The notes: generated by a model not told the origin, from the letters alone. Numbered from the stretch's first letter, positions 14,559 through 35,999 are shown. The stretch: DNA of 64,000 bases from an uncultured Verrucomicrobiae bacterium (GCA_963739345.1 CAVUAA010000002.1:330713-394712); one strand, 5' to 3'. Numbers and translations: made by a program.

Positions 14559-15057
14559 GGAAAAGATTCGGCAGGAGTTTCGGGAGATTCGGAAGGGGTT
14601 ATCGGAGGAGCGGCGGCGGGGTGCGGCGGAGGCTCTGAGGGGAGAGGTGCTCAGGCTGGTTCCGGAGGGGCTGGTGATGTCGTTTTGGAGTTTGGGGGAT
14701 GAGATTGGGACCGAGTTGTTGAATGAGGCGTTGGGAGAGCGATTGGTGCTCCCGAGGGTTCATGATGGAGGGCTGGAGATGCGGCGCGCCGGTGACCTGG
14801 TGGAGGGACCCTATGGTTTGATGGAACCGTCGGAAGGCTGTGAGCGGGTGGACGAGGTGGGGTGTGTTTTGGTGCCAGGGTTAGCTTTTGATGAGTGGGG
14901 GCACCGGGTGGGCTATGGAATGGGATATTATGATCGCTGTCTAGCTGGGGTGGCTGAGCGGGTGGTGGTGTACGGGGTGGCGTTTAGGGAGCAGCTGGTG
15001 GCCCTTGTGCCGGCGGAGGCGCACGATGTTCCTGTTCACAAAGTTCTAAGTTTCTAA
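14533..15057 (+). CDS. 5-formyltetrahydrofolate cyclo-ligase
   Basis: Motif VPGLAFDEWGHRVGYGMGYYDR. Start taken at ATG 14533; the ORF is open from 14485. Confidence 0.75.
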   Translation: MWREVQLSKEKIRQEFREIRKGLSEERRRGAAEALRGEVLRLVPEGLVMSFWSLGDEIGTELLNEALGERLVLPRVHDGGLEMRRAGDLVEGPYGLMEPSEGCERVDEVGCVLVPGLAFDEWGHRVGYGMGYYDRCLAGVAERVVVYGVAFREQLVALVPAEAHDVPVHKVLSF

Positions 15058-15148
15058 TCACCTGCGCGCAAGTTTTATTAACAAAGTGTGTGTTGAGGAA
15101 GGTGCGGCCGGCTGTGAGGAGCTGGGCGTGCTGTTCGGGGGTGATGGT
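14991..15148. repeat. left copy of the 158-bp direct repeat flanking the phosphoramidate cassette
   Basis: Identical to 21381-21538 except one substitution (15002 c vs 21392 g). It covers the last 67 nt of the cyclo-ligase gene, the spacer, and the 3' end of a GT10-like gene on the opposite strand. Confidence 0.9.
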
Positions 15149-18635: not shown

Positions 18636-19354
18636 TGAGAGCGATCATTTTGGCTGCTGGCACAGGGACGAGACTAGGCTCCCTCACAGCGGACCGTCCG
18701 AAGTGCATGGTAGAGTTGCAGGGGGTGCCGCTGATTGATCGGACGCTCGCGGTGCTACGAGCCGCTGGTATTGATGACGTAATTGTCATCACGGGCTACC
18801 GCGACGACTGCTTGCGAGATCATCTCAAAGGGCAGGGGGTGAGGTTTTGTCATAACGGCGACTACGCCTCCACGAACATGGTGGCAAGTCTCCTGACTGC
18901 TCGCGAGTTTTTTGACCAGGAGTCGCTCATCTCCTATGCCGATATCGTCTATACGCCCGCCGTTGTCAAGGCACTGATCCGCGAGAGAGCACCGCTTGCC
19001 CTCACCTACGACACCGACTGGCACACCTTGTGGTCGATGCGGATGGAAGATCCGCTTTTGGACGCAGAGACGTTCAAAACGGATGCGGATGGATATGTTG
19101 AGGTGGTTGGGGGAAAGCCCCGTTCTCTTAGTGACATTCAGGGGCAATACATGGGGCTCATTCGGGCGAATCCTATCGGCTTTGAGTCGCTTGTTGCGAC
19201 CTATGAGAGGTTGGGTCGTCCTCCCAAACTGCAGATGACCGAGCTCTTGCAAGCGGTGACGGCTCCGATCAAGGGTATTGCAGTGTCAGGGGGTTGGGTG
19301 GAGGTCGACACGCCCGAAGACCTGCTAGCCTACAAGGATCTTAGCTGGCTTTAG
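18635..19354 (+). CDS. nucleotidyltransferase (Cj1416-like; candidate cytidylyltransferase)
   Basis: TGATG overlap with the upstream gene. N-terminal MRAIILAAGTGTRLG signature of NTP-transferases. Confidence 0.7.
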   Translation: MRAIILAAGTGTRLGSLTADRPKCMVELQGVPLIDRTLAVLRAAGIDDVIVITGYRDDCLRDHLKGQGVRFCHNGDYASTNMVASLLTAREFFDQESLISYADIVYTPAVVKALIRERAPLALTYDTDWHTLWSMRMEDPLLDAETFKTDADGYVEVVGGKPRSLSDIQGQYMGLIRANPIGFESLVATYERLGRPPKLQMTELLQAVTAPIKGIAVSGGWVEVDTPEDLLAYKDLSWL

Positions 19355-20526
19355 AGATAGTCCGTGGACATCCACCGGTCGCGTGTTTTGCGATGCCTTC
19401 GGCGGGCTCTTGAGTTTGCGATGGCTTCTATCCGCTCCCGTTCCGTTTCGGCTGTGACAAGCGAGTAGGACTTCTCTAACGCCTGTTTGTAGAGTCGCCG
19501 TTTCCTTAGAACCTGAAAGACGCGTGTCAGCGTCTCACACACACCGTAGCTCTCCGTCTCATCCAGGAGTTGCCGAAGCAGCCGGTAGTCGACAAACCGG
19601 CCGTATGTAGCTGCCTGAATGCGGGCCATTGGACGGTCGTGGATCGTTGCACTCCATTCGGCTAAGGTCTGCCCTACTTGGTTGTTGAAGGCCCGCTCTC
19701 CCCATCTTGAGAGAGCCTTGGCAAGTCGCGCCTGGTAGGGGAGAGTTTGCGTTGCGCCAGCCTCCACGTCGTAGCCGAACTTTTGGGCAACAATGGCTGG
19801 CCAGCCGTGAAGAGCCTCCAGGTCTTCTGCGGAGTACAGCATCGCCCCTCACCCACCTGCCCTTTGCGCATGAGCTCGTGAGTTCCCAGCCATTTGACGG
19901 TGGCCGCACGGATGTTGGCGAAAGAGGAGGCCTCAATGGCCGCCTCTATCTCTCCAAGAGGCCTCTCTTCTCCCAAAAACCCTAACGCGCGCAGCACAGC
20001 TGGGAGTGGGTTGGATTTGAGCTCTTCGAAGCTGATTGTCAGTAGTTTCCCCGGTCCGAAGGCATTGGGGATGAGGCTATAGTAGTTCGCCCACTCTTCT
20101 GCCGGGGCATGATGGAGTTGGTGGCTGTAGTGAGGATCGTTTATATAAAGCGGCTCTGTGAGAAATTGGCTGAATGAGAGATGTCCGCCCAACTCTGTGG
20201 TGGCAGCGAATGAAGAACATCACGAATATCCCGGACTACCAGGATCCCCCGTCCTTTGATCTCTTCGCGGTTTGGGAGGAAGTGGGTCGAGGAGCAACGT
20301 GGGGCAGTCGCCAAAGTGGTAGACGGTTTGGTCTTGCAATCTTGGAAATCGGCCGGCAAGCAGCTTCCGCTCCCCCTCATCGATCGTCCACGAGCCATCG
20401 CCATTATTCTTCCAAAAGCATCAAAGTCTCCACGGTAGATGGGAATGCCTAACTCGAAGAGAATGTTTGCGAGGATCGACTCCCGGCGTGCGGGAAAGCG
20501 TAGATCCCGATCGACTCAGCCGCCAT
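19351..20526 (-). pseudogene. sulfotransferase-fold gene interrupted by at least three frameshifts
   Basis: MAAESIGIYAFPHAGSR (PKSGTT-like 5'-PSB position) / ILANILFELG...GILVVRDIRDVLHS / GHLSFSQF...LLTISFEELKSNPLPAVLRALGFLG...ELMRKGQVGEG / MLYSAEDLEALHGW... These lie in codon phases 0, 1, 2, 0. ATG 20526 overlaps the methyltransferase stop. Confidence 0.6.
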
Positions 20527-21250
20527 GGCGGGCGACCCAGATGCGTGTGGTGTAAGGAACCCCCACCTCTGCATCAGGGATAAGCGAGTGAATCTCATCA
20601 CAGATCGTGCTGAAAGCCTCTCCTGCCTGACGGGCCAGCGTCTCGTGTGATCGCCAGGCGGTGACAATCCGCTCTTTGGTCATGGGGACCACAAACGTAC
20701 TCTCCACCTTCTGCGAACTTTCGAAGAGGCCCGATGCTTCAATCACAGCGGTTGGGTCCTGGCGCCTCTTTCCGTAAGAGTAATCGGCAATTTTGGACTG
20801 GATCAGCTCCTCGATCGCCCTTTGCAGCGGGTCGTTTAAGTCTCGGTGATTCCACATGCAGGCAAAGTACCCACCTGGAATAAGTAACCGTGCGGCCTCC
20901 TTAAGTGCTAGGGCCTGATCCACCACGTTGAATGAGGAGCCGAAAAAGACTCCTGCAAACTGATCACTTTGAAGTCCCGTCTCCTCGCCAGAGGCCTTTT
21001 GCCACCGAACATCGAGTCCAGCACTATTTTTGATCCCAAAGTCGCGCATCGCATCGTTGGGCTCTACTGCTTTGACCCTCAGTCCGTATTGGGCGAGGGG
21101 GCCAGAGAGCTTCCCCGTGCCAGCTCCCACATCGGCCACGAGGTCCCCCCTGCTCAGGCCCATCATTTCAAAGCAGCGCGTCAGCGCCTCTTTTGAATAG
21201 TCAGCCCTTTGATCGTATGAGCTCGCACGCTCAGTATAGTCCCACTTCAT
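20516..21250 (-). CDS. class I SAM-dependent methyltransferase
   Basis: Motif I DLVADVGAGTGKLSGPLA, followed by VKAVEPNDAMRDFG. 244 codons. Confidence 0.8.
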   Translation of the reverse strand: MKWDYTERASSYDQRADYSKEALTRCFEMMGLSRGDLVADVGAGTGKLSGPLAQYGLRVKAVEPNDAMRDFGIKNSAGLDVRWQKASGEETGLQSDQFAGVFFGSSFNVVDQALALKEAARLLIPGGYFACMWNHRDLNDPLQRAIEELIQSKIADYSYGKRRQDPTAVIEASGLFESSQKVESTFVVPMTKERIVTAWRSHETLARQAGEAFSTICDEIHSLIPDAEVGVPYTTRIWVARHGG

Positions 21251-21358
21251 CCTAACCTCCCGTAGATTCTAGTTGGCCTGGAACCATACCATACTCATAG
21301 TCTAAGCTGCCACCCAATAATCTAGATTGAGATCATTGGGTGGCAACTATCGGGTGGA

Positions 21359-21901
21359 CTATGATCGCTGTTGAGTGGGGGCAGCTGGTGGGCCTTGTGC
21401 CGGCGGAGGCGCACGATGTTCCTGTTCACAAAGTTCTAAGTTTCTAATCACCTGCGCGCAAGTTTTATTAACAAAGTGTGTGTTGAGGAAGGTGCGGCCG
21501 GCTGTGAGGAGCTGGGCGTGCTGTTCGGGGGTGATGGTGTCTAGGTAGGCGGTGAGGTCGGTGTCTGTGGGGAAGCGGGAAGGGTCGATGTAGCAGGTGG
21601 GGGGGATAGCGGGGGTGCCGCGGTAGATGGGGACGGTGCCGCGGGCAATGGTCTCTAGGAGTTTATGGCAGTCGGATACTTGAGCGAAGCGGGGGGCGGC
21701 GACTCTGTTTTTATTGGCGAGGAGGCGGAAGTGGTCGCTAAGTTTGACGACGACGGCCCCTTCGGGAATGCGTTTGAGCGAGGTGCGGCGGAGGTCGTAG
21801 CCTAGGTCTCGGAGCTTTCGTTGGAGCAACTTCCAGACAGGGTGTCTGGTTTGCGGGGAGTAGTAGGCGATACGAGAGTGGGAGATGCCGAATAGCCGCA
21901 A
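21359..21901 (-). CDS. short, motif-degenerate GT10-like paralogue (possible pseudogene)
   Basis: Aligns with the C-terminal half of the neighbouring GT10 gene (TVPIYRGTPAIPPTCYIDPSRFPT vs SVPIYWGAPNITEYVPADCFIDRTQFPS), but the YENxxxxxYVTEK motif is lost. TTG start; only 180 codons. Confidence 0.45.
   Translation of the reverse strand: MRLFGISHSRIAYYSPQTRHPVWKLLQRKLRDLGYDLRRTSLKRIPEGAVVVKLSDHFRLLANKNRVAAPRFAQVSDCHKLLETIARGTVPIYRGTPAIPPTCYIDPSRFPTDTDLTAYLDTITPEQHAQLLTAGRTFLNTHFVNKTCAQVIRNLELCEQEHRAPPPAQGPPAAPTQQRS
21381..21538. repeat. right copy of the 158-bp direct repeat flanking the phosphoramidate cassette
   Basis: See 14991-15148. The right copy carries a decayed remnant of the cyclo-ligase 3' end (21359-21448, about 41 bp shorter than the intact gene). 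Confidence 0.9.
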
Positions 21902-21960
21902 GGTTTAAGTGCCTCCAGGATGTCCTCGGTTACCTGATCTATAAATCGATCATGGAAAAA

Positions 21961-22902
21961 TTAGCCAGCTTTTTTCAGATCGGCGGTCAATGTCTCTTGG
22001 ATGCCAGCTGTCATCTGATTGATAAAGCTCTCCTCTGAAAATAGCTTTGCTTTTTCGGAGGCTAGATAGCGCTTCGCGGCGGTCAGATAGGGGGCCGGGT
22101 CGAGGGTGAGGAGGTGTTCGTAGAGGGCTTGATCCGAGGGGAACTGAGTGCGGTCGATGAAGCAATCAGCCGGTACGTACTCGGTGATATTAGGTGCGCC
22201 CCAGTAGATGGGGACCGAGCCAGCGCAGAAGCAGTCGAGAATCTTTTCGGTGACGTAGCCGGGCATGCTGTGGCCATTCTCATAGGCGATAGTAAAGCGG
22301 AAGTTAGAGAGAGTAGCCAGCTTGTCGTCGACAGGGCCGCCATAGTTACGATAGCCCAGATGCTCCCAGCCAGTTCCGTAAAAGGTGAAATCAGCCTCAG
22401 GTTGATCTTCGAAAAACTCGATGAGGCGGCGGCGGTGGGTGTAGAGTTCTTGTGGATGGGAAGAGGCCTTGTTGCCCACAACCATGGTGAGAAAGCGATG
22501 CTGGGAGTTTGGAGAGCGGCTTTTGAGTGGGTTAGGGAATAGAAGCTTTTGAAATTTGGGCCCGTGGAGGTCATCGCGGAGGGTGTAGATGCGGGAAAAG
22601 CGGTCGTAACAGGCGGCGGTGTGCTGGTAGGGGATGTATGTGGGGGGCTCGGTCTGAATGAGGTGGTGGGTGGCTGGAGAGCGGTTGCGGAGGAAGTCGA
22701 GCGTCTCAGCAGTGGGCATGATGTCATTGAAGATGACGAGGGGGGCGTCTTGAGGGATTCTCCTAAGGGGAGAGCATTTGAGGCGGTAGGGCTTTACCTG
22801 GTCACGGATGGTGGCCCAAGAGGACCATTTTTGGAAAAAAGGCTCTCGGTGGGTGTGACCGGGGAGAAGGGTGATGTAGGCGGTGGGGGGCTGCTTGAAC
22901 AT
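21961..22902 (-). CDS. GT10-family alpha-1,3/4-fucosyltransferase-like glycosyltransferase
   Basis: Start at ATG 22902; the longer ORF would overlap recA. Signature FRFTIAYENGHSMPGYVTEKILDCFCAGSVPIYWGAP closely resembles the H. pylori FutA-type motif FENxxxxxYVTEKxxDxxxxxxIPIYWG. Confidence 0.75.
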   Translation of the reverse strand: MFKQPPTAYITLLPGHTHREPFFQKWSSWATIRDQVKPYRLKCSPLRRIPQDAPLVIFNDIMPTAETLDFLRNRSPATHHLIQTEPPTYIPYQHTAACYDRFSRIYTLRDDLHGPKFQKLLFPNPLKSRSPNSQHRFLTMVVGNKASSHPQELYTHRRRLIEFFEDQPEADFTFYGTGWEHLGYRNYGGPVDDKLATLSNFRFTIAYENGHSMPGYVTEKILDCFCAGSVPIYWGAPNITEYVPADCFIDRTQFPSDQALYEHLLTLDPAPYLTAAKRYLASEKAKLFSEESFINQMTAGIQETLTADLKKAG

Positions 22903-22957
22903 GTTGACTACTATAGGGTGAAAGGGGGATTCTAGCAGAAACCACAGAGGGAGGTCA

Positions 22958-24016
22958 ATGATGGGAAGAGAAAGCGAGTCAGCTCGAAAAAAGGCGTTAG
23001 AAGCGGCAGTTGCACATATCCATAAACAGTTTGGTGAAGGGGCGATCATGAGCCTCGGCAAGCAGTCCGCCGGCCGCGAGGTAGAGGTGATCTCGACCGG
23101 AGCAATCTCTCTCGACATTGCATTGGGAATTGGCGGAGTGCCACGTGGAAGGATTGTAGAGATTTATGGGCCTGAGTCGTCGGGAAAGTCGACGCTGGCA
23201 ACCCACATTGTGGCCAATGCGCAGAAGAATGGGGGCTTGGCGGCCTACATCGATGCGGAGCACGCCCTCGATCCGAGTTATGCGACGAAAATCGGGGTGA
23301 ATATCGATGACCTTTTGATCTCACAGCCCGACAGCGGAGAGGAGGCGCTCCAGATCACGGAGGTGCTCGCCCGCTCGAATGCGGTCGATGTGATTGTGAT
23401 CGACTCGGTGGCAGCACTGGTTCCCAAGAGTGAGCTAGATGGGGAAATTGGTGACTCGTTCGTCGGTCTTCACGCGCGGCTGATGTCGCAGGCGCTTCGG
23501 AAGCTGACCGCAGCGGTTTCGAGGAGCAACACCTGTGTGATCTTCATCAACCAGATCCGTGAGAAAATTGGGGTGATGTTTGGGAGTCCAGAGACCACGA
23601 CGGGTGGCCGGGCGCTTAAGTTCTACTCGTCGATCCGTCTCGACATTCGCCGGATTGGGAGCATCAAGGGAACGACAGCCGATGCCAATATCTTGGGAAA
23701 CAGGGTGAAGGTGAAGGTGGCCAAGAACAAGATGGCTCCTCCGTTTAGGATCGCCGAGTTTGATATTCTGTTCAACGAAGGAATCTCAAAAGCGGGATCG
23801 CTGATCGACATGGCCGTTGAGTTTGAGGTGATCGATAAGAAAGGGGCGTGGTTCAGCTACAAAGGGGGACGACTCGGCCAAGGGCGCGAAGCGGTCCGTG
23901 AGGAGCTGCGCAACAACCAGGAGCTCTTCGATCAGATTGATGCGGAAGTTCGTGCGAAGAATCCACTTCTGGCCACGAAAGAGACGCCGAAACAAGAGGC
24001 TCCAGCTCCGGCGTGA
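22958..24016 (+). CDS. recA: recombinase RecA
   Basis: [22 protein letters not shown], Walker [47 protein letters not shown]. Confidence 0.97.
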
Positions 24017-24792
24017 TCATCGTCAAAATCCATGGGGGGCTGGGCAACCAGCTCTTCCAGTATGCATTTGGGCGTGCGCGCTCCATCCGGGAGGAGAAAA
24101 AACTCCTCCTCGACATTCGCTGGTATCGCAAAGGTGATCGGGTCCTTGGACTCGATCATTTTTGCATCACCGGCGGCCGCCGTTCGTGGTGGCACTGGAG
24201 AGAAGAAGAGCCCCTTTCCGGCTACTGGCAAAGCGAAAACTATTTCGCCGATCAGGCCGATTTGATTCGGCAGGAGCTACAACCAAAAGTGGCAGTTACC
24301 GGCTGCGAGCCGATGGAGCGGCGTGAGTCGGTCAGTCTTCATGTGAGGCGGGGCGACTATGTCCAGCACAAGACGCGTGCGCCGGTTCATGGCGTCAACC
24401 TCGATCACTACTACAAGCGTGCTGTGGACCTGATGCAGGAGCGGTTGGCCAATCCCCACTTCTTTGTCTTTAGCGATGAGCCGGAGTGGGTGAGAGAGAA
24501 TCTATCTCTTGATGCGCCCATGACTGTGATGGAGGCGGGGGCGCCACATGAGGATCTCATTCGAATGAGCAGCTGCCGGCATCACATCATGGCAAACAGC
24601 TCATTTAGTTGGTGGGGGGCGTGGCTTAATCCGGGCAGTGAGAAGACTGTCACAGCGCCCGATCAGTGGTTCAATGTGCCAGGGCACGACACGAGCGATC
24701 TCCTTCCAGAAGGCTGGATCAAATTGAGCTGTAGCGAGGAAAAGCGCGAATCAGCTTGTCACTCGCCTGTTGCTCAGCTAGGCGCACTCTAA
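24013..24792 (+). CDS. GT11-family alpha-1,2-fucosyltransferase
   Basis: GTG start overlapping the recA stop (GTGA). Motifs [34 protein letters not shown]. Confidence 0.8.
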
Positions 24793-25456
24793 AGTCGCTG
24801 ATCGGATTGGCGTCATTATAGATATAGAGCACTTCGGGGATGAACCGGAAGCGGGGGCCGGCCATCTCGGCGATGGGGAACATGGTGGCCAGATCGCCTG
24901 CTGTGCGAAAATAGTCTCCTGTACGGGGATCGCGCAGGTCTTTGTCCTCAATCTGCCTCCAGAGTAGGTACTTGTAGGTGCGGAGGTGGGAGAAAAGCCA
25001 CGATTTCTTTCTGTAGTGGAGCTTGCGGGTGGTTTTGGACTTGGGAAGGCGGCAGTGGCCGATGGTGCCGGCCCGGTAGTTGAGATATTGGCCGTAGGTG
25101 AAGAGGGCGTCTGAGGAGGAGTAGACGTCGTCTAGTTTTTGCAATACCCACTCGTTGGCGAGCCAGTCATCGCCATCAACCACAATGATCACATCGTCGT
25201 CGGTGCACTTGTGAGCGGCGGTGCCGTCAATGAGGCCGGCGAGGGGGCCGCCGTTTTCTTCGCGGGTGTGGTGGATCCAATTGTTGCGATCGCAGAAATC
25301 TTTGATGACTGCTTTGTGTTGATCATCCGTTGAGGCGTCGTCGACGACGGCAACGTCGAAGTGGGGGTAGTCCTGCGACTCGATAGAGCGGAGGGTCCGC
25401 TCTATCCATGGGTAGCTGTTGTAGGAGGGGACGACGATTTTGAAGTGGGTGGTCAT
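24719..25456 (-). CDS. GT2-family glycosyltransferase
   Basis: Start at ATG 25456 (ATGA overlap with the upstream gene). IVVPSYNSYPWIERTLRSIESQDYPHFDVAVVDDASTD, VVDGDDW. Confidence 0.8.
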   Translation of the reverse strand: MTTHFKIVVPSYNSYPWIERTLRSIESQDYPHFDVAVVDDASTDDQHKAVIKDFCDRNNWIHHTREENGGPLAGLIDGTAAHKCTDDDVIIVVDGDDWLANEWVLQKLDDVYSSSDALFTYGQYLNYRAGTIGHCRLPKSKTTRKLHYRKKSWLFSHLRTYKYLLWRQIEDKDLRDPRTGDYFRTAGDLATMFPIAEMAGPRFRFIPEVLYIYNDANPISDFRVRLAEQQASDKLIRAFPRYSSI

Positions 25457-26289
25457 GGGATGGAGGCGAAGGTTTGAGCGATGGTTTGGAGGTGAGTGTC
25501 GTCGATGGGGAGGGTGCCCAAAGTTTGCTGGAGGGCGCCGAGCTCCTCTTGGTAGCGGGCCATGGCGGCGTCGGGGCCCATGAGGAGGACGGTGTTCATC
25601 TGGGAGTCGTTGGCTCTGTCTTGTTCGAGGTCCTCGAAGTCGTCGGCCATCTGAAAGACGAGGCCAAGGTGTTGAGACATCTTCTTGACGCGGGGGAGGA
25701 GGGTGGGGTCGCCGCCGCCAAAGAGCCAGCCGAGGACAAATGAGGTCTCGAAGAGGGCGCCTGTCTTGCGGGCGATGGTGTCGAAGACGTTGGCTTCTGT
25801 GAGGGCGGAGGGGTGGAGGTCTTGAAATTGGCCTCCTGTGAGCCCTGAGAGGCCCATGTTGGTCGAGACGTTCTCTACGGCCAGCCTGCACATCTTATCA
25901 CCGTGGAGGGGCATCAGGAGGGCGTTATAGGCAAGCTGCTCATAGGCGGCGGCAATGAGGCCGTAGCTGGCGAGAAAAGCGGTCTCCTCATTGAACGCAC
26001 GATGGGTAGAGGGACGGCCGCGGCGCATGTCGTCGTTGTCCATGCAGGGAAGGTCGTCGGCGATGAGGGAGGAGGTGTGGAGGTATTCTACGCAAAGGGC
26101 TGCAGGGCCAACGTCGAGGCCGTTGCCGAGGGCGTCGGCCATCATGAGGACGAGGGCAGGACGGAGCCGCTTGCCTGGACTGTTGAGGGCGTATTTCACC
26201 GCCTGGTGGAGGGGGGTGTTCTCCGACATGAGACTCAGCTCGGCAGTGAGAATCGCCTCGAACCGTTCTTTATAGGGTGTGAGAGGCAA
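25453..26289 (-). CDS. short-chain polyprenyl diphosphate synthase (IspA-like FPP/GGPP synthase)
   Basis: GKRLRPALV, first Asp-rich motif IADDLPCMDNDDMRRGRPS, second FQMADDFED. The start is uncertain (TTG 26289 or ATG 26229). Confidence 0.8.
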   Translation of the reverse strand: MPLTPYKERFEAILTAELSLMSENTPLHQAVKYALNSPGKRLRPALVLMMADALGNGLDVGPAALCVEYLHTSSLIADDLPCMDNDDMRRGRPSTHRAFNEETAFLASYGLIAAAYEQLAYNALLMPLHGDKMCRLAVENVSTNMGLSGLTGGQFQDLHPSALTEANVFDTIARKTGALFETSFVLGWLFGGGDPTLLPRVKKMSQHLGLVFQMADDFEDLEQDRANDSQMNTVLLMGPDAAMARYQEELGALQQTLGTLPIDDTHLQTIAQTFASIP

Positions 26290-35005: not shown

Positions 35006-35999
35006 CGGGCCAAGATGTTGATTGTGTGATTGTGGGGCGAAACTGCGCTCACACGCTGGCACGCTGTATTGAGAGCGTGAAGAGTGTGGAGTACACGCGC
35101 GGAGAGGTGCGGGTGATCTACGTCGATGGGGGGTCGGCCGATGGATCAGTTGCTCTGGCGAAGGGATATGATGGGGTAGAGGTGGTCGAGATGGCCGGCA
35201 CCCCAAATATGGGGGCTGTCGCAACGCGGGTTGGCGAGCGGGAAGCGGATCGCTGGTTCAGTTTGTGGCGGGTGATACGGCGCTTGCGTCTGATTGGTTT
35301 CAGGTGGCGACGAAGGGGATGATGGCGGAAATTGGCGCGACGTTTGGCAGGAGAGAGGAGGTGGATCCGGAGGCGTCACGCTACAACAAAATCGCCGATA
35401 TGGAGTGGAATCCGACGGTGCCGGCAGGCGAGGTGCTCGGGTTTGGGAATGATGTGTTGATCCGGCGCTCTGTTTTGGAGACTGTCGATGGGTACAATGA
35501 GGCGATGAGGATGGGGCATGAGGCCGATCTCTCGCAGCGAATTCGCGATCAGGGGAGTCTGATTTTCTATATCAGTCATCTGATGACGCGGCACGATGTG
35601 AGGCTCAGTCGGTGGGATCAGTGGTGGGGGCACGCCTATCGGCGGGGGTATGGCTTGGCCAATTTCCGCCACCTCCATCCGGCGGCAGAGCTCTGGCGTG
35701 GTTGGGCGGGGCGGGTGTGGATTCACGGGGGACTGGGATTAGGGTTGGCTGTGCTGGGCTTGATCCTCTTTTCGTGGAGTTTTTGGTGGCTCGTTGTGTT
35801 GTGGTTGCCGGCAGCCTATCTCATCCTCAAGCCGCGCATCCGCGAGGTGGAGGAGTGGGCGGAGCGGCTCGAGGTTCCTCTTCAGGATGCGGTCCTCTTC
35901 ACCTGGCACCGCTCGTTTGTGGTGGTGCCGCAATTTTTAGGAATGCTCCGCTGGCGGTGGGCAAAATGGACCGGACGGTCAATGAAAGGGGGCATCTGA
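35002..35999 (+). pseudogene. GT2-family glycosyltransferase with a single frameshift near 35198-35215
   Basis: Frame 1: VDCVIVGRNCAHTLARCIESV...VIYVDGGSADGS...VEMAG. Frame 0 continues PKYGGCRNAGWRAGSGSLVQFVAGDTALASDWF..., with C-terminal TM helices. The junction lies in ggcaccccaaatatggggg. Confidence 0.6.

What the first reader, a model, noticed from the sequence alone, without database searches (positions are those of the whole stretch)
21359..25456. GT10 and GT11 fucosyltransferases wrapped around recA: a Lewis-type fucosylated glycan locus
Seen in the sequence:
- A GT10-type gene (21961..22902) carries YENGHSMPGYVTEKILDCFCAGSVPIYWG, very close to the H. pylori FutA/FutB motif.
- A short degenerate GT10 paralogue lies downstream (21359..21901).
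- recA starts only 55 bp away on the other strand. A GT11 alpha-1,2-fucosyltransferase ([24 protein letters not shown]) has a GTG start overlapping the recA stop (GTGA at 24013-16). A convergent GT2 gene follows.

Established knowledge: the GT10 plus GT11 combination builds Lewis x/y-type epitopes in Helicobacter pylori.

Inference: the organism makes a host-mimicking fucosylated surface glycan. Translational coupling of a fucosyltransferase to recA is unusual. The phosphoramidate cassette is inserted at the edge of this locus, so this glycan is a plausible target.
Basis: partly seen in the sequence, partly recalled or inferred. Interest (0 to 1): 0.6.

Follow-up and report, generated by a model that had tools for sequence, protein, structure and literature searches.

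The report
Fucosyltransferase genes flanking chlamydial recA
In an uncultured chlamydia-like bacterium, two genuine fucose-adding enzyme genes sit on either side of the DNA-repair gene recA. The layout is shared with close relatives, but a human-like "Lewis" sugar is not shown, and the genome's own gene for making the fucose donor looks broken.

Summary
A GT10 gene (21961-22902, minus) and a GT11 gene (24013-24792, plus) flank recA. A 180-aa GT10-derived ORF lies downstream of GT10, the GT11 GTG start overlaps the recA stop, and a convergent GT2 follows. HMMs, motifs, catalytic residues and predicted folds place both enzymes in their families.

The arrangement is not unique. GT10|recA occurs in four related chlamydial lineages. 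recA-GT11 with the 4-bp overlap occurs in three. Closer kin have recA with neither, so these are two separate insertions beside a conserved recA-polyprenyl synthase-LbH backbone. GT10 and GT11 are under purifying selection. The short ORF is a catalytically dead remnant of a second tandem GT10, still open in three lineages.

The Lewis-mimicry reading is not supported:
- Family membership does not fix the acceptor.
- No GT25, WaaL or Wzx was found, and there are no phase-variation tracts.
- gmd is intact, but fcl (GDP-fucose synthase) carries three 1-nt insertions.
- Another GT2 nearby is frameshifted, and one tandem GT2 is missing.

The most likely function is cytoplasmic fucosylation of LOS or another envelope glycan, in a pathway now eroding or dependent on host GDP-fucose. 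This is an ordinary new member of known kinds. The scan had already noted the neighbouring island and the frameshifts.

The parts
21359..21901 (-). Short GT10-derived ORF (180 aa). It is a remnant of a second tandem GT10, lacks the YEN...GYxTEK motif, and carries a further 27-aa in-frame deletion relative to its relatives.
   Evidence: BLASTP to GT10 gives E 2e-11. No Pfam hit. Open homologues exist in L020 (51% identity) and as P0242 (193 aa, 48%). dN/dS is 0.47. G001 has two full-length tandem GT10 genes at this position.
21961..22902 (-). GT10-family fucosyltransferase gene (313 aa) with no signal peptide or transmembrane segment evident.
   Evidence: PF00852 E 4.7e-13. PDB sequence hits are GT10 only. 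E85, R157, E208, N209, T218, E219 and K220 are conserved in 24 homologues. The AF2 model has pLDDT 96.1, and the top folds are H. pylori FucT and FUT9. dN/dS is 0.21 against L020.
22903..22957 (.). 55-bp divergent intergenic region between GT10 and recA. A promoter-like site (TTGACC-18-TAGAAT, with TG) on the minus strand at 22958-22929 faces GT10.
   Evidence: Consensus scan only; not evidence of function. The same spacing (58 bp) occurs in L020.
22958..24016 (+). recA.
   Evidence: PF00154 435 bits and PF21096. 87-91% identical to recA of L020 and L037.
24013..24792 (+). GT11-family fucosyltransferase gene (259 aa). Its GTG start overlaps the recA stop (GTGA at 24013-24016). Its N-terminal domain is about 50 residues shorter than in typical GT11 proteins.
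   Evidence: PF01531 E 7.6e-37. Motifs I-IV are invariant. The AF2 model has pLDDT 91.7, and the folds found are NodZ, POFUT1 and FUT8. The 4-bp overlap is conserved in L020 and L037. dN/dS is 0.12.
24719..25456 (-). Convergent GT2 glycosyltransferase gene. It is the first gene of the GT2-polyprenyl synthase-LbH minus-strand set, and the counterpart of the distal of the two tandem GT2 genes in L020.
   Evidence: PF00535 E 1e-17. 78% identity to L020 GT2b and 68% to GT2a.
14991..15148 (.). Left copy of the 158-bp direct repeat that brackets the phosphoramidate island. It holds the true 3' end of the 5-formyl-THF cyclo-ligase gene.
   Evidence: Alignment A3: both copies match the single cyclo-ligase/short-GT10 junction of L020.
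21381..21538 (.). Right copy of the repeat. It lies inside the 3' end of the short GT10-derived ORF.
34981..35999 (+). Context: a third GT2 gene, between ppa and pgi. It is split by a 1-nt deletion near 35210 relative to the intact orthologue in L020.
   Evidence: tblastn places it in two frames. DNA alignment shows GT-CGC against GTGCGC.

Best explanation
This is a lineage-specific patch of glycosyltransferase genes that built up on both sides of recA in one clade of uncultured Chlamydiota.

Anatomy:
- A GT10 enzyme, with catalytic and GDP-fucose-binding residues intact, is transcribed divergently from recA.
- A compact GT11 enzyme of the bacterial alpha1,2-FucT type most likely arrived from outside the phylum. 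It sits directly behind recA and is probably co-transcribed and translationally coupled through a 4-bp overlap.

Likely function (inferred): both enzymes are soluble cytoplasmic GT-B enzymes. With the neighbouring GT2 enzymes they most likely add fucose from GDP-fucose to a glycan built on the cytoplasmic face, such as an LOS core extension or another envelope glycoconjugate. The genome has the Kdo transferase but no O-antigen ligase or flippase that I could find.

State of the pathway: in this genome it looks partly eroded.
- The second tandem GT10 is reduced to a catalytically dead short ORF.
- One tandem GT2 present in L020 is missing here (lost here or duplicated there).
- A third GT2 carries a frameshift.
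- The GDP-fucose synthase gene carries three 1-nt insertions.

Fucosylation here therefore either depends on host GDP-fucose or has recently stopped.

Shown: families, folds, residues, synteny, selection, insertion history. Inferred: donor, acceptor, cellular location, co-transcription.
For: Families and folds.

Synteny:
- L020 has the same order with 69-72% identical GT10 and GT11.
- L037 has recA(91%)-GT11-GT2 with an ATGA overlap.
- G001 and L038 have recA divergent from GT10.
- G002, G003 and L039-L041 have recA-polyprenyl-LbH without GT10 or GT11.

Selection: dN/dS is 0.21 for GT10 and 0.12 for GT11, like the housekeeping neighbours at 0.06-0.22.

Origin of GT11: the window, L020 and P0003 form a 100/100 clade inside proteobacterial-type GT11. 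A 100/100 long branch separates them from the GT11-like genes of other chlamydiae.

Envelope machinery: KdtA is present. Wzy_C/WaaL and Wzx were not found.

Donor pathway: gmd is intact at 565 bits. fcl is split over three frames by three single-base insertions, between intact dnaA and lgt.

Other erosion: GT2c frameshift. GT2a absent.
Against: - No biochemical or glycan data exist, so donor, acceptor and location are inferences from family membership.
- dS between the compared genomes is near saturation, so the dN/dS values are rough.
- The assembly has scattered single frameshifts in other genes (earlier notes). The GT2c break, and less probably the fcl breaks, could therefore be assembly errors.
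- Failure to find WaaL or Wzx by one Pfam model each, in a 94%-complete genome, does not show absence.
- Among 40 relatives, GT10-like and GT11-like genes do not track gmd or fcl. A simple 'own GDP-fucose to own glycan' scheme does not predict this.
Confidence: 0.55

Rival explanations
1. Lewis-antigen mimicry as in Helicobacter pylori. GT10 adds alpha1,3/4-fucose and GT11 adds alpha1,2-fucose to LacNAc-type chains on the bacterium's LPS, producing Lewis x/y-like host-mimicking epitopes.
For: Both families used by H. pylori are present and intact. The GT10 C-terminal motif matches H. pylori FucT closely, and its model is closest to 2NZX and FUT9. H. pylori FutA/B are GT10 and FutC is GT11 (PMC4202792).
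Against: - GT11 and GT10 acceptors vary widely, and one GT11 member is an alpha1,3 enzyme.
- No GT25 galactosyltransferase, no WaaL and no Wzx were found.
- There are no homopolymer tracts of 8 or more bases like those of the phase-variable fut genes.
- fcl is broken.
- The host of this uncultured chlamydia is unknown and may be a protist that has no Lewis antigens.
Confidence: 0.1
2. Host-dependent or host-directed fucosylation. The enzymes use GDP-fucose made in the host cytosol. It is either imported for bacterial glycans, or used by the enzymes after secretion to fucosylate host or inclusion glycoconjugates.
For: - fcl appears dead while GT10 and GT11 stay intact.
- No Fkp-type salvage gene was found in this genome or in 40 relatives.
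- Of 16 relatives with GT10- or GT11-like genes, 7 have neither gmd nor fcl. Five of those are at least 95% complete.
- The organism belongs to an obligately intracellular phylum.
Against: - The window's GT10 and GT11 have no secretion signal or membrane anchor.
- They sit among other cytoplasmic-type glycosyltransferases.
- No GDP-sugar importer is known to me in chlamydiae.
- Many of the 'GT11' hits in relatives belong to a different, signal-bearing clade, so the co-occurrence count mixes non-orthologues.
- Relatives are not independent samples.
Confidence: 0.15
3. A dying pathway. The fucosyltransferase genes are still open only because too little time has passed since the pathway was switched off, and no fucosylated glycan is made any more.
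For: Several broken or reduced glycan genes occur in one genome:
- fcl with three insertions.
- GT2c with one deletion.
- The short, dead GT10.
- GT2a missing.
- The island's sulfotransferase-like gene, broken according to earlier notes.

The fcl fragments still sum to about 418 bits, against 373-482 for intact chlamydial orthologues. This points to recent inactivation.
Against: GT10, GT11 and GT2 show no stops, no frameshifts and no loss of conserved residues. The short ORF was already reduced in the common ancestor with L020 and P0242, so it is old, not recent, decay. The frameshifts could not be verified in reads.
Confidence: 0.15
4. The link to recA is functional. Coupling GT11 translation to recA ties surface-glycan fucosylation to DNA-damage or recombination states.
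For: The 4-bp stop/start overlap is kept in three lineages, although GT11 has diverged to 55-72% identity. A conserved AAGAGG lies upstream of the start.
Against: Nearer relatives have recA followed directly by the convergent GT2/polyprenyl operon. G001 has an unrelated 670-aa ORF there. 4-bp overlaps are common in compact genomes, and other gene pairs in this window have them. No LexA/SOS evidence was sought.
Confidence: 0.05

Closest known systems
Helicobacter pylori alpha1,3/4-fucosyltransferases FutA/FutB (CAZy GT10; PDB 2NZW/2NZX/2NZY) and human FUT9 (8D0O-8D0X)
   Same: - GT-B fold: top Foldseek hits at E 2e-12 and TM about 0.6.
- Shared C-terminal motif ...ENxxxxGYVTEKIxD....PIYWG.
- A conserved Glu in the N-domain aligns to the FUT9 'LESP' Glu.
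   Different: - Only 14-23% identical overall.
- No C-terminal heptad repeats or amphipathic tail as in H. pylori, and no type II membrane anchor as in FUT9.
- No poly-C phase-variation tract.
- Acceptor unknown.
- It belongs to a chlamydial GT10 subgroup (35-45% identity to MAG proteins labelled Chlamydiales or Simkaniaceae) that no paper I found describes.
Bacterial GT11 alpha1,2-fucosyltransferases (H. pylori FutC; E. coli WbsJ, WbwK, WbiQ)
   Same: All four conserved motifs are present, including GGLGNQ(L/M)FQYA, HVRRGDY and [11 protein letters not shown]. It is 40-45% identical over 92% of its length to proteins annotated as alpha-1,2-fucosyltransferase.
   Different: - About 50 residues of the N-terminal (acceptor-side) domain are missing. 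L020 shares this, and P0003 shares it in part. The model still folds with confidence.
- It is placed behind recA rather than in an O-antigen cluster.
- It is not related to the signal-bearing GT11-like clade of other chlamydiae.
Variable LOS/O-antigen glycosyltransferase loci flanked by conserved housekeeping genes (e.g. Campylobacter or Neisseria LOS loci)
   Same: Gene content differs between close relatives at a fixed chromosomal site: zero, one or two GT10; GT11 present or absent; zero, one or two GT2. GT11 divergence is decoupled from recA divergence.
   Different: - The patch is split by recA rather than forming one operon.
- It is very small (3-5 genes).
- There are no sugar-nucleotide genes in the locus.
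- The organism is an obligate intracellular chlamydia whose glycans are unknown.

Membership tests
CAZy GT10 / Pfam PF00852 fucosyltransferase | Score above the curated Pfam cut-off | tested here: met
   49.6 bits against a cut-off of 23.9, E 4.7e-13. It is the only such hit in the genome.
CAZy GT10 / Pfam PF00852 fucosyltransferase | Conserved alpha1,3-FucT nucleotide-binding motif (ENxxxxxYxTEK) and basic residue | tested here: met
   YENGHSMPGYVTEKILD. E208, N209, T218, E219, K220 and R157 are invariant or nearly so in 24 homologues, and they align to H. pylori FucT residues 221-307.
CAZy GT10 / Pfam PF00852 fucosyltransferase | Catalytic-base Glu in the N-terminal domain | tested here: met
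   E85 (QTEPP) aligns with the Glu of the FUT9 'LESP' motif in the profile alignment. That this Glu is the catalytic base is from my own knowledge of FUT9 and H. pylori FucT.
CAZy GT10 / Pfam PF00852 fucosyltransferase | GT-B fold closest to solved GT10 enzymes | tested here: met
   The model has pLDDT 96.1. Top hits are 2NZX, 2NZW, 2NZY, 8D0W, 9S6A and 7YRO, all GT10.
CAZy GT10 / Pfam PF00852 fucosyltransferase | GDP-fucose-dependent alpha1,3/4 transfer | not testable with these tools
   Needs an enzyme assay.
GT10 (short ORF 21359-21901) | HMM score and catalytic motif | tested here: not met
   No Pfam or NCBIfam hit. The motif is replaced by ...FAQVSDCHKLLE.... It is a GT10 derivative by pairwise similarity only.
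CAZy GT11 / Pfam PF01531 fucosyltransferase | Score above the curated Pfam cut-off | tested here: met
   127.6 bits against a cut-off of 23.9. It is the only hit in the genome.
CAZy GT11 / Pfam PF01531 fucosyltransferase | Conserved motifs (N-terminal GGLGNQ, HxRRGDY, C-terminal SSFSWW) | tested here: met
   All are invariant in a 52-sequence alignment.
CAZy GT11 / Pfam PF01531 fucosyltransferase | Full-length two-domain architecture (about 280-300 aa) | tested here: inconclusive
   259 aa. About 50 residues of the N-domain are absent, and the Pfam match covers only profile positions 126-295. The model is still confident (pLDDT 91.7), and the deletion is shared with a relative under purifying selection.
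CAZy GT11 / Pfam PF01531 fucosyltransferase | Fold of the GT11/GT23/GT37/GT65 fucosyltransferase superfamily | tested here: met
   Foldseek finds NodZ, POFUT1, FUT8 and AtFUT1 at E 9e-6 to 1e-3. No GT11 structure turned up in the PDB by sequence.
CAZy GT11 / Pfam PF01531 fucosyltransferase | alpha1,2 linkage to Gal | not testable with these tools
   The family also holds an alpha1,3 enzyme, H. hepaticus Hh0072 (PMC4202792).
H. pylori-type Lewis antigen system | GT10 and GT11 enzymes both present | tested here: met
H. pylori-type Lewis antigen system | De novo GDP-fucose supply (gmd + fcl) | tested here: not met
   gmd is intact. fcl is split by three 1-nt insertions. No Fkp was found. Read-level confirmation was not possible.
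H. pylori-type Lewis antigen system | LacNAc-building galactosyltransferase (GT25 type) | tested here: inconclusive
   No PF01755 hit, but a GT2 enzyme could do the same job.
H. pylori-type Lewis antigen system | O-antigen ligase (WaaL) and flippase | tested here: not met
   No PF04932 or PF01943 hit in the 94%-complete genome. KdtA is present. H. pylori's own flippase (Wzk, ABC type) was not searched.
H. pylori-type Lewis antigen system | Phase-variable homopolymer tracts in the fut genes | tested here: not met
   The longest run in 21300-25500 is 7 bases.

The most novel reading that the evidence does not exclude
Environmental chlamydiae carry fucosyltransferases that run on the host's cytosolic GDP-fucose. 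In this lineage the bacterium's own GDP-fucose synthase has just been lost while GT10 and GT11 are kept. The enzymes would then fucosylate bacterial glycans with an imported host donor, or act on host or inclusion glycoconjugates. That would be a new form of metabolic parasitism or host modification for the phylum.
Probability: 0.12. Interest if true: 0.7.

Novelty: new member of a known kind. Interest (0 to 1): 0.3.

Why it matters
Almost nothing is known about the surface glycans of environmental chlamydiae beyond the Kdo-lipid A core. I found no paper describing chlamydial fucosyltransferases.

Intact GT10 and GT11 enzymes in conserved synteny suggest that some lineages decorate a glycan with fucose. 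The variable gene content beside recA gives a compact marker locus for glycan diversity in these uncultured bacteria.

The mismatch between intact transferases and a broken donor-synthesis gene raises a testable question about host-derived sugar nucleotides. If the frameshifts are only assembly errors, the locus is simply a small, ordinary glycosylation cluster.

Tried and rejected
- Fkp-type salvage (PF07959): not found in this genome or in 40 relatives.
- The 462-aa ORF at 30913-32301 as a GDP-fucose pyrophosphorylase. It has no Pfam or NCBIfam hit. An Atlas feature search does point to PF07959 clusters. Its homologues occur in 10 of 40 relatives, with no relation to GT10 or GT11. I rejected it as an explanation of the donor supply.
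- Co-occurrence of GT10/GT11 with gmd/fcl across 40 relatives. No association appeared, but the GT11-like hits turned out to be a different clade, so the count is weak evidence.
- Compositional signs of recent transfer. GT10 and GT11 have genome-average G+C, 0.557-0.564 against 0.563, which is uninformative.
- Sequence search for a solved GT11 structure: none.
- Literature on chlamydial fucosyltransferases: nothing relevant.
- Terminator scan: nothing convincing between recA and GT11 or after GT11.
- A complex prediction for GT10 with the short ORF was not run, because I make no binding claim.

Full report
**What is there**

The window is G000:C2:330713-394712 of a 1.72-Mb, two-contig genome. 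Two things mark it as an uncultured member of Chlamydiota:
- a CT351-family outer-membrane protein gene next to gmd;
- nearest named recA relatives that are all MAGs labelled Chlamydiae, Chlamydiales or Chlamydiota, at 74-77% identity.

| Coordinates | Strand | Gene |
|---|---|---|
| 21359-21901 | - | 180-aa short ORF |
| 21961-22902 | - | GT10 |
| 22958-24016 | + | recA, 55 bp from the GT10 start |
| 24013-24792 | + | GT11; GTG start overlaps the recA TGA |
| 24719-25456 | - | convergent GT2 |

Pfam confirms GT10 (PF00852, E 4.7e-13), recA, GT11 (PF01531, E 7.6e-37) and GT2. These are the only GT10 and GT11 hits in the genome.

**Family membership**

GT10:
- PDB sequence searches find only GT10 enzymes.
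- The motif YENGHSMPGYVTEKILDCFCAGSVPIYWG aligns to H. pylori FucT residues 221-307.
- A 24-sequence profile aligns almost end to end with human FUT9. It places the nearly invariant E85 on the FUT9 'LESP' glutamate.
- An AlphaFold model (pLDDT 96.1) is closest to H. pylori FucT (E 2e-12), FUT9 and the plant GT10 enzymes.

GT11:
- All conserved motifs are invariant in a 52-sequence alignment.
- About 50 residues of the N-terminal domain are absent.
- The model is nevertheless confident (pLDDT 91.7). It matches the NodZ/POFUT1/FUT8/AtFUT1 fucosyltransferase superfamily.
- No solved GT11 structure was found by sequence.

Short ORF:
- It aligns to GT10 residues 189-305 and to a short N-terminal stretch.
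- It lacks the catalytic motif and has no HMM hit.

**Synteny and history**

| Locus | Arrangement |
|---|---|
| L020 (JGI metagenome contig) | MORN - cyclo-ligase - short ORF (uncalled but open) - GT10 \| recA - GT11 (GTGA overlap) - GT2 - GT2 - polyprenyl synthase - LbH - mutL - M24. GT10 is 69% and GT11 72% identical. No phosphoramidate island. |
| L037 (Logan contig) | recA (91% identical) - GT11 (55%, ATGA overlap) - convergent GT2 |
| G001 (same family) | recA divergent from two full-length tandem GT10 genes; an unrelated 670-aa ORF lies behind recA |
| L038 | recA divergent from one GT10 (44% identical), followed by cyclo-ligase and MORN |
| G002, G003 and three further MAGs | MORN - recA - (GT2) - polyprenyl synthase - LbH, with no GT10 or GT11 |

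The 'wrap' around recA is therefore the sum of two insertions beside a conserved backbone. The older one is a GT10 pair upstream. The younger one is a GT11 directly downstream.

The GT11 clade (window, L020, P0003) has 100/100 support. It sits among proteobacterial-type GT11 proteins. A long 100/100 branch separates it from the GT11-like genes of eight other chlamydiae, which carry an N-terminal hydrophobic segment and lack HxRRGDY. Import from outside the phylum is the simplest reading. The tree is unrooted, so the direction of transfer is an inference.

recA groups the window with L037. GT11 groups it with L020. This suggests allelic exchange or uneven rates at the glycan genes.

**Selection**

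| Gene (window against L020) | dN/dS |
|---|---|
| GT10 | 0.21 |
| GT11 | 0.12 |
| GT2 | 0.12-0.15 |
| recA | 0.06 |
| mutL | 0.10 |
| cyclo-ligase | 0.22 |
| short ORF | 0.47 |

dS is near saturation, so they are rough. GT10, GT11 and GT2 behave like their housekeeping neighbours.

The short ORF has in-frame indels. It is open in three lineages (window 180 aa, L020 about 191 aa, P0242 193 aa). It is therefore an old, catalytically dead derivative of the second tandem GT10 that is probably still translated. It is not a fresh pseudogene.

**The island**

The 158-bp repeat noted earlier in the scan is real. Both copies align to the single convergent cyclo-ligase/short-ORF junction of L020. The phosphoramidate island was therefore inserted exactly at the edge of this gene patch. 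This shows adjacency, not a functional link.

**Donor and acceptor**

What the genome has:
- gmd, at 565 bits;
- the Kdo transferase.

What I did not find:
- Wzy_C/WaaL, Wzx (PF01943) or GT25;
- an Fkp-type fucose salvage gene.

The GDP-fucose synthase gene fcl (C1:592267-593157) is split over three frames by three single-base insertions, none in a long homopolymer. Its NADP-binding glycines, its Ser and its YxxxK are still present. It lies between intact dnaA and lgt.

Earlier notes report scattered single frameshifts in other genes of this assembly, and one block with very many. Three hits within about 270 nt, flanked by intact genes, are hard to explain as uniform error. I rate a real, recent pseudogene at about 75%. 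I could not verify this in reads.

A third GT2 in the window (34981-35999) carries a 1-nt deletion relative to L020. One of the two tandem GT2 genes of L020 has no counterpart here.

Among 40 relatives, 16 have GT10- or GT11-like genes:
- 4 have clear gmd and fcl;
- 1 (G010) has gmd with a weak fcl-like match;
- 4 have gmd only;
- 7 have neither;
- none has Fkp.

The GT11-like hits are not orthologues of the window's GT11, so this count is only suggestive.

**Interpretation**

The best-supported reading has three parts.
- This is a small, variable glycosyltransferase patch of cytoplasmic GT-B and GT-A enzymes.
- It fucosylates an LOS-type or other envelope glycan.
- In this genome the pathway is partly eroded or dependent on host GDP-fucose.

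The H. pylori-style Lewis reading rests only on the presence of the two families. Acceptors and even linkages vary within GT10 and GT11 (PMC4202792). There are no phase-variation tracts, and the supporting machinery was not found.

The recA coupling is conserved, but it is best explained by the position of the insertion.

I found no literature on chlamydial fucosyltransferases. The finding adds new members to known kinds rather than a new kind.

Noticed in passing
G000:C1:592267-593157 (outside the window; L015-L017, L026:8268-9158): The GDP-L-fucose synthase gene (fcl) is broken by three single-base insertions (frames 0, 1, 2, then back to 0), between intact dnaA and lgt. Cofactor and catalytic residues are still present. 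gmd elsewhere (C1:414449-415441) is intact.
   Followed up: partly
window 34981-35999: The GT2 gene between ppa and pgi is split by a 1-nt deletion (GT-CGC against GTGCGC in L020) at about 35210. It is either a pseudogene or an assembly error.
   Followed up: partly
L002-L010 (genomes G033, G028, G020, G029, G036, G035, G040, G008): Other chlamydiae carry a separate clade of GT11-like genes, with up to six hits in one genome. They have an N-terminal hydrophobic, signal-like segment and HxRxY in place of HxRRGDY. They may be exported enzymes of unknown donor.
   Followed up: partly
window 30913-32301 (-): A conserved 462-aa ORF has no Pfam or NCBIfam hit, but its language-model features match fucose-pyrophosphorylase (PF07959) clusters at 0.97. 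Its homologues are in 10 of 40 relatives, independent of GT10 or GT11.
   Followed up: partly
L037 and L020 against window 22958-24792: recA is closer between the window and L037 (dN 0.054) than between the window and L020 (0.095). GT11 shows the reverse (dN 0.355 against 0.20). This hints at allelic replacement or uneven rates at the glycan gene.
   Followed up: partly
window 19351-20667 and C1:592267-593157: Both the sulfotransferase-like gene and fcl show exactly three frame shifts in the same direction, which return to the original frame. This may be coincidence or a mutational or assembly bias. It is unexplained.
   Followed up: no
G022 (C25:12530-13871; C7:21997-28873; C1:214952) and G036: GT10 is expanded to five and three copies, some in tandem, in two other chlamydial genomes. 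G022 has no gmd or fcl match (88% complete).
   Followed up: no
L021 (GCA_016185065.1) and L023 (GCA_022763045.1): Chlamydial GT10 homologues elsewhere sit in unrelated contexts. One is fused into a GT10-rnc-radA string. Another lies next to two GT4 genes.
   Followed up: no
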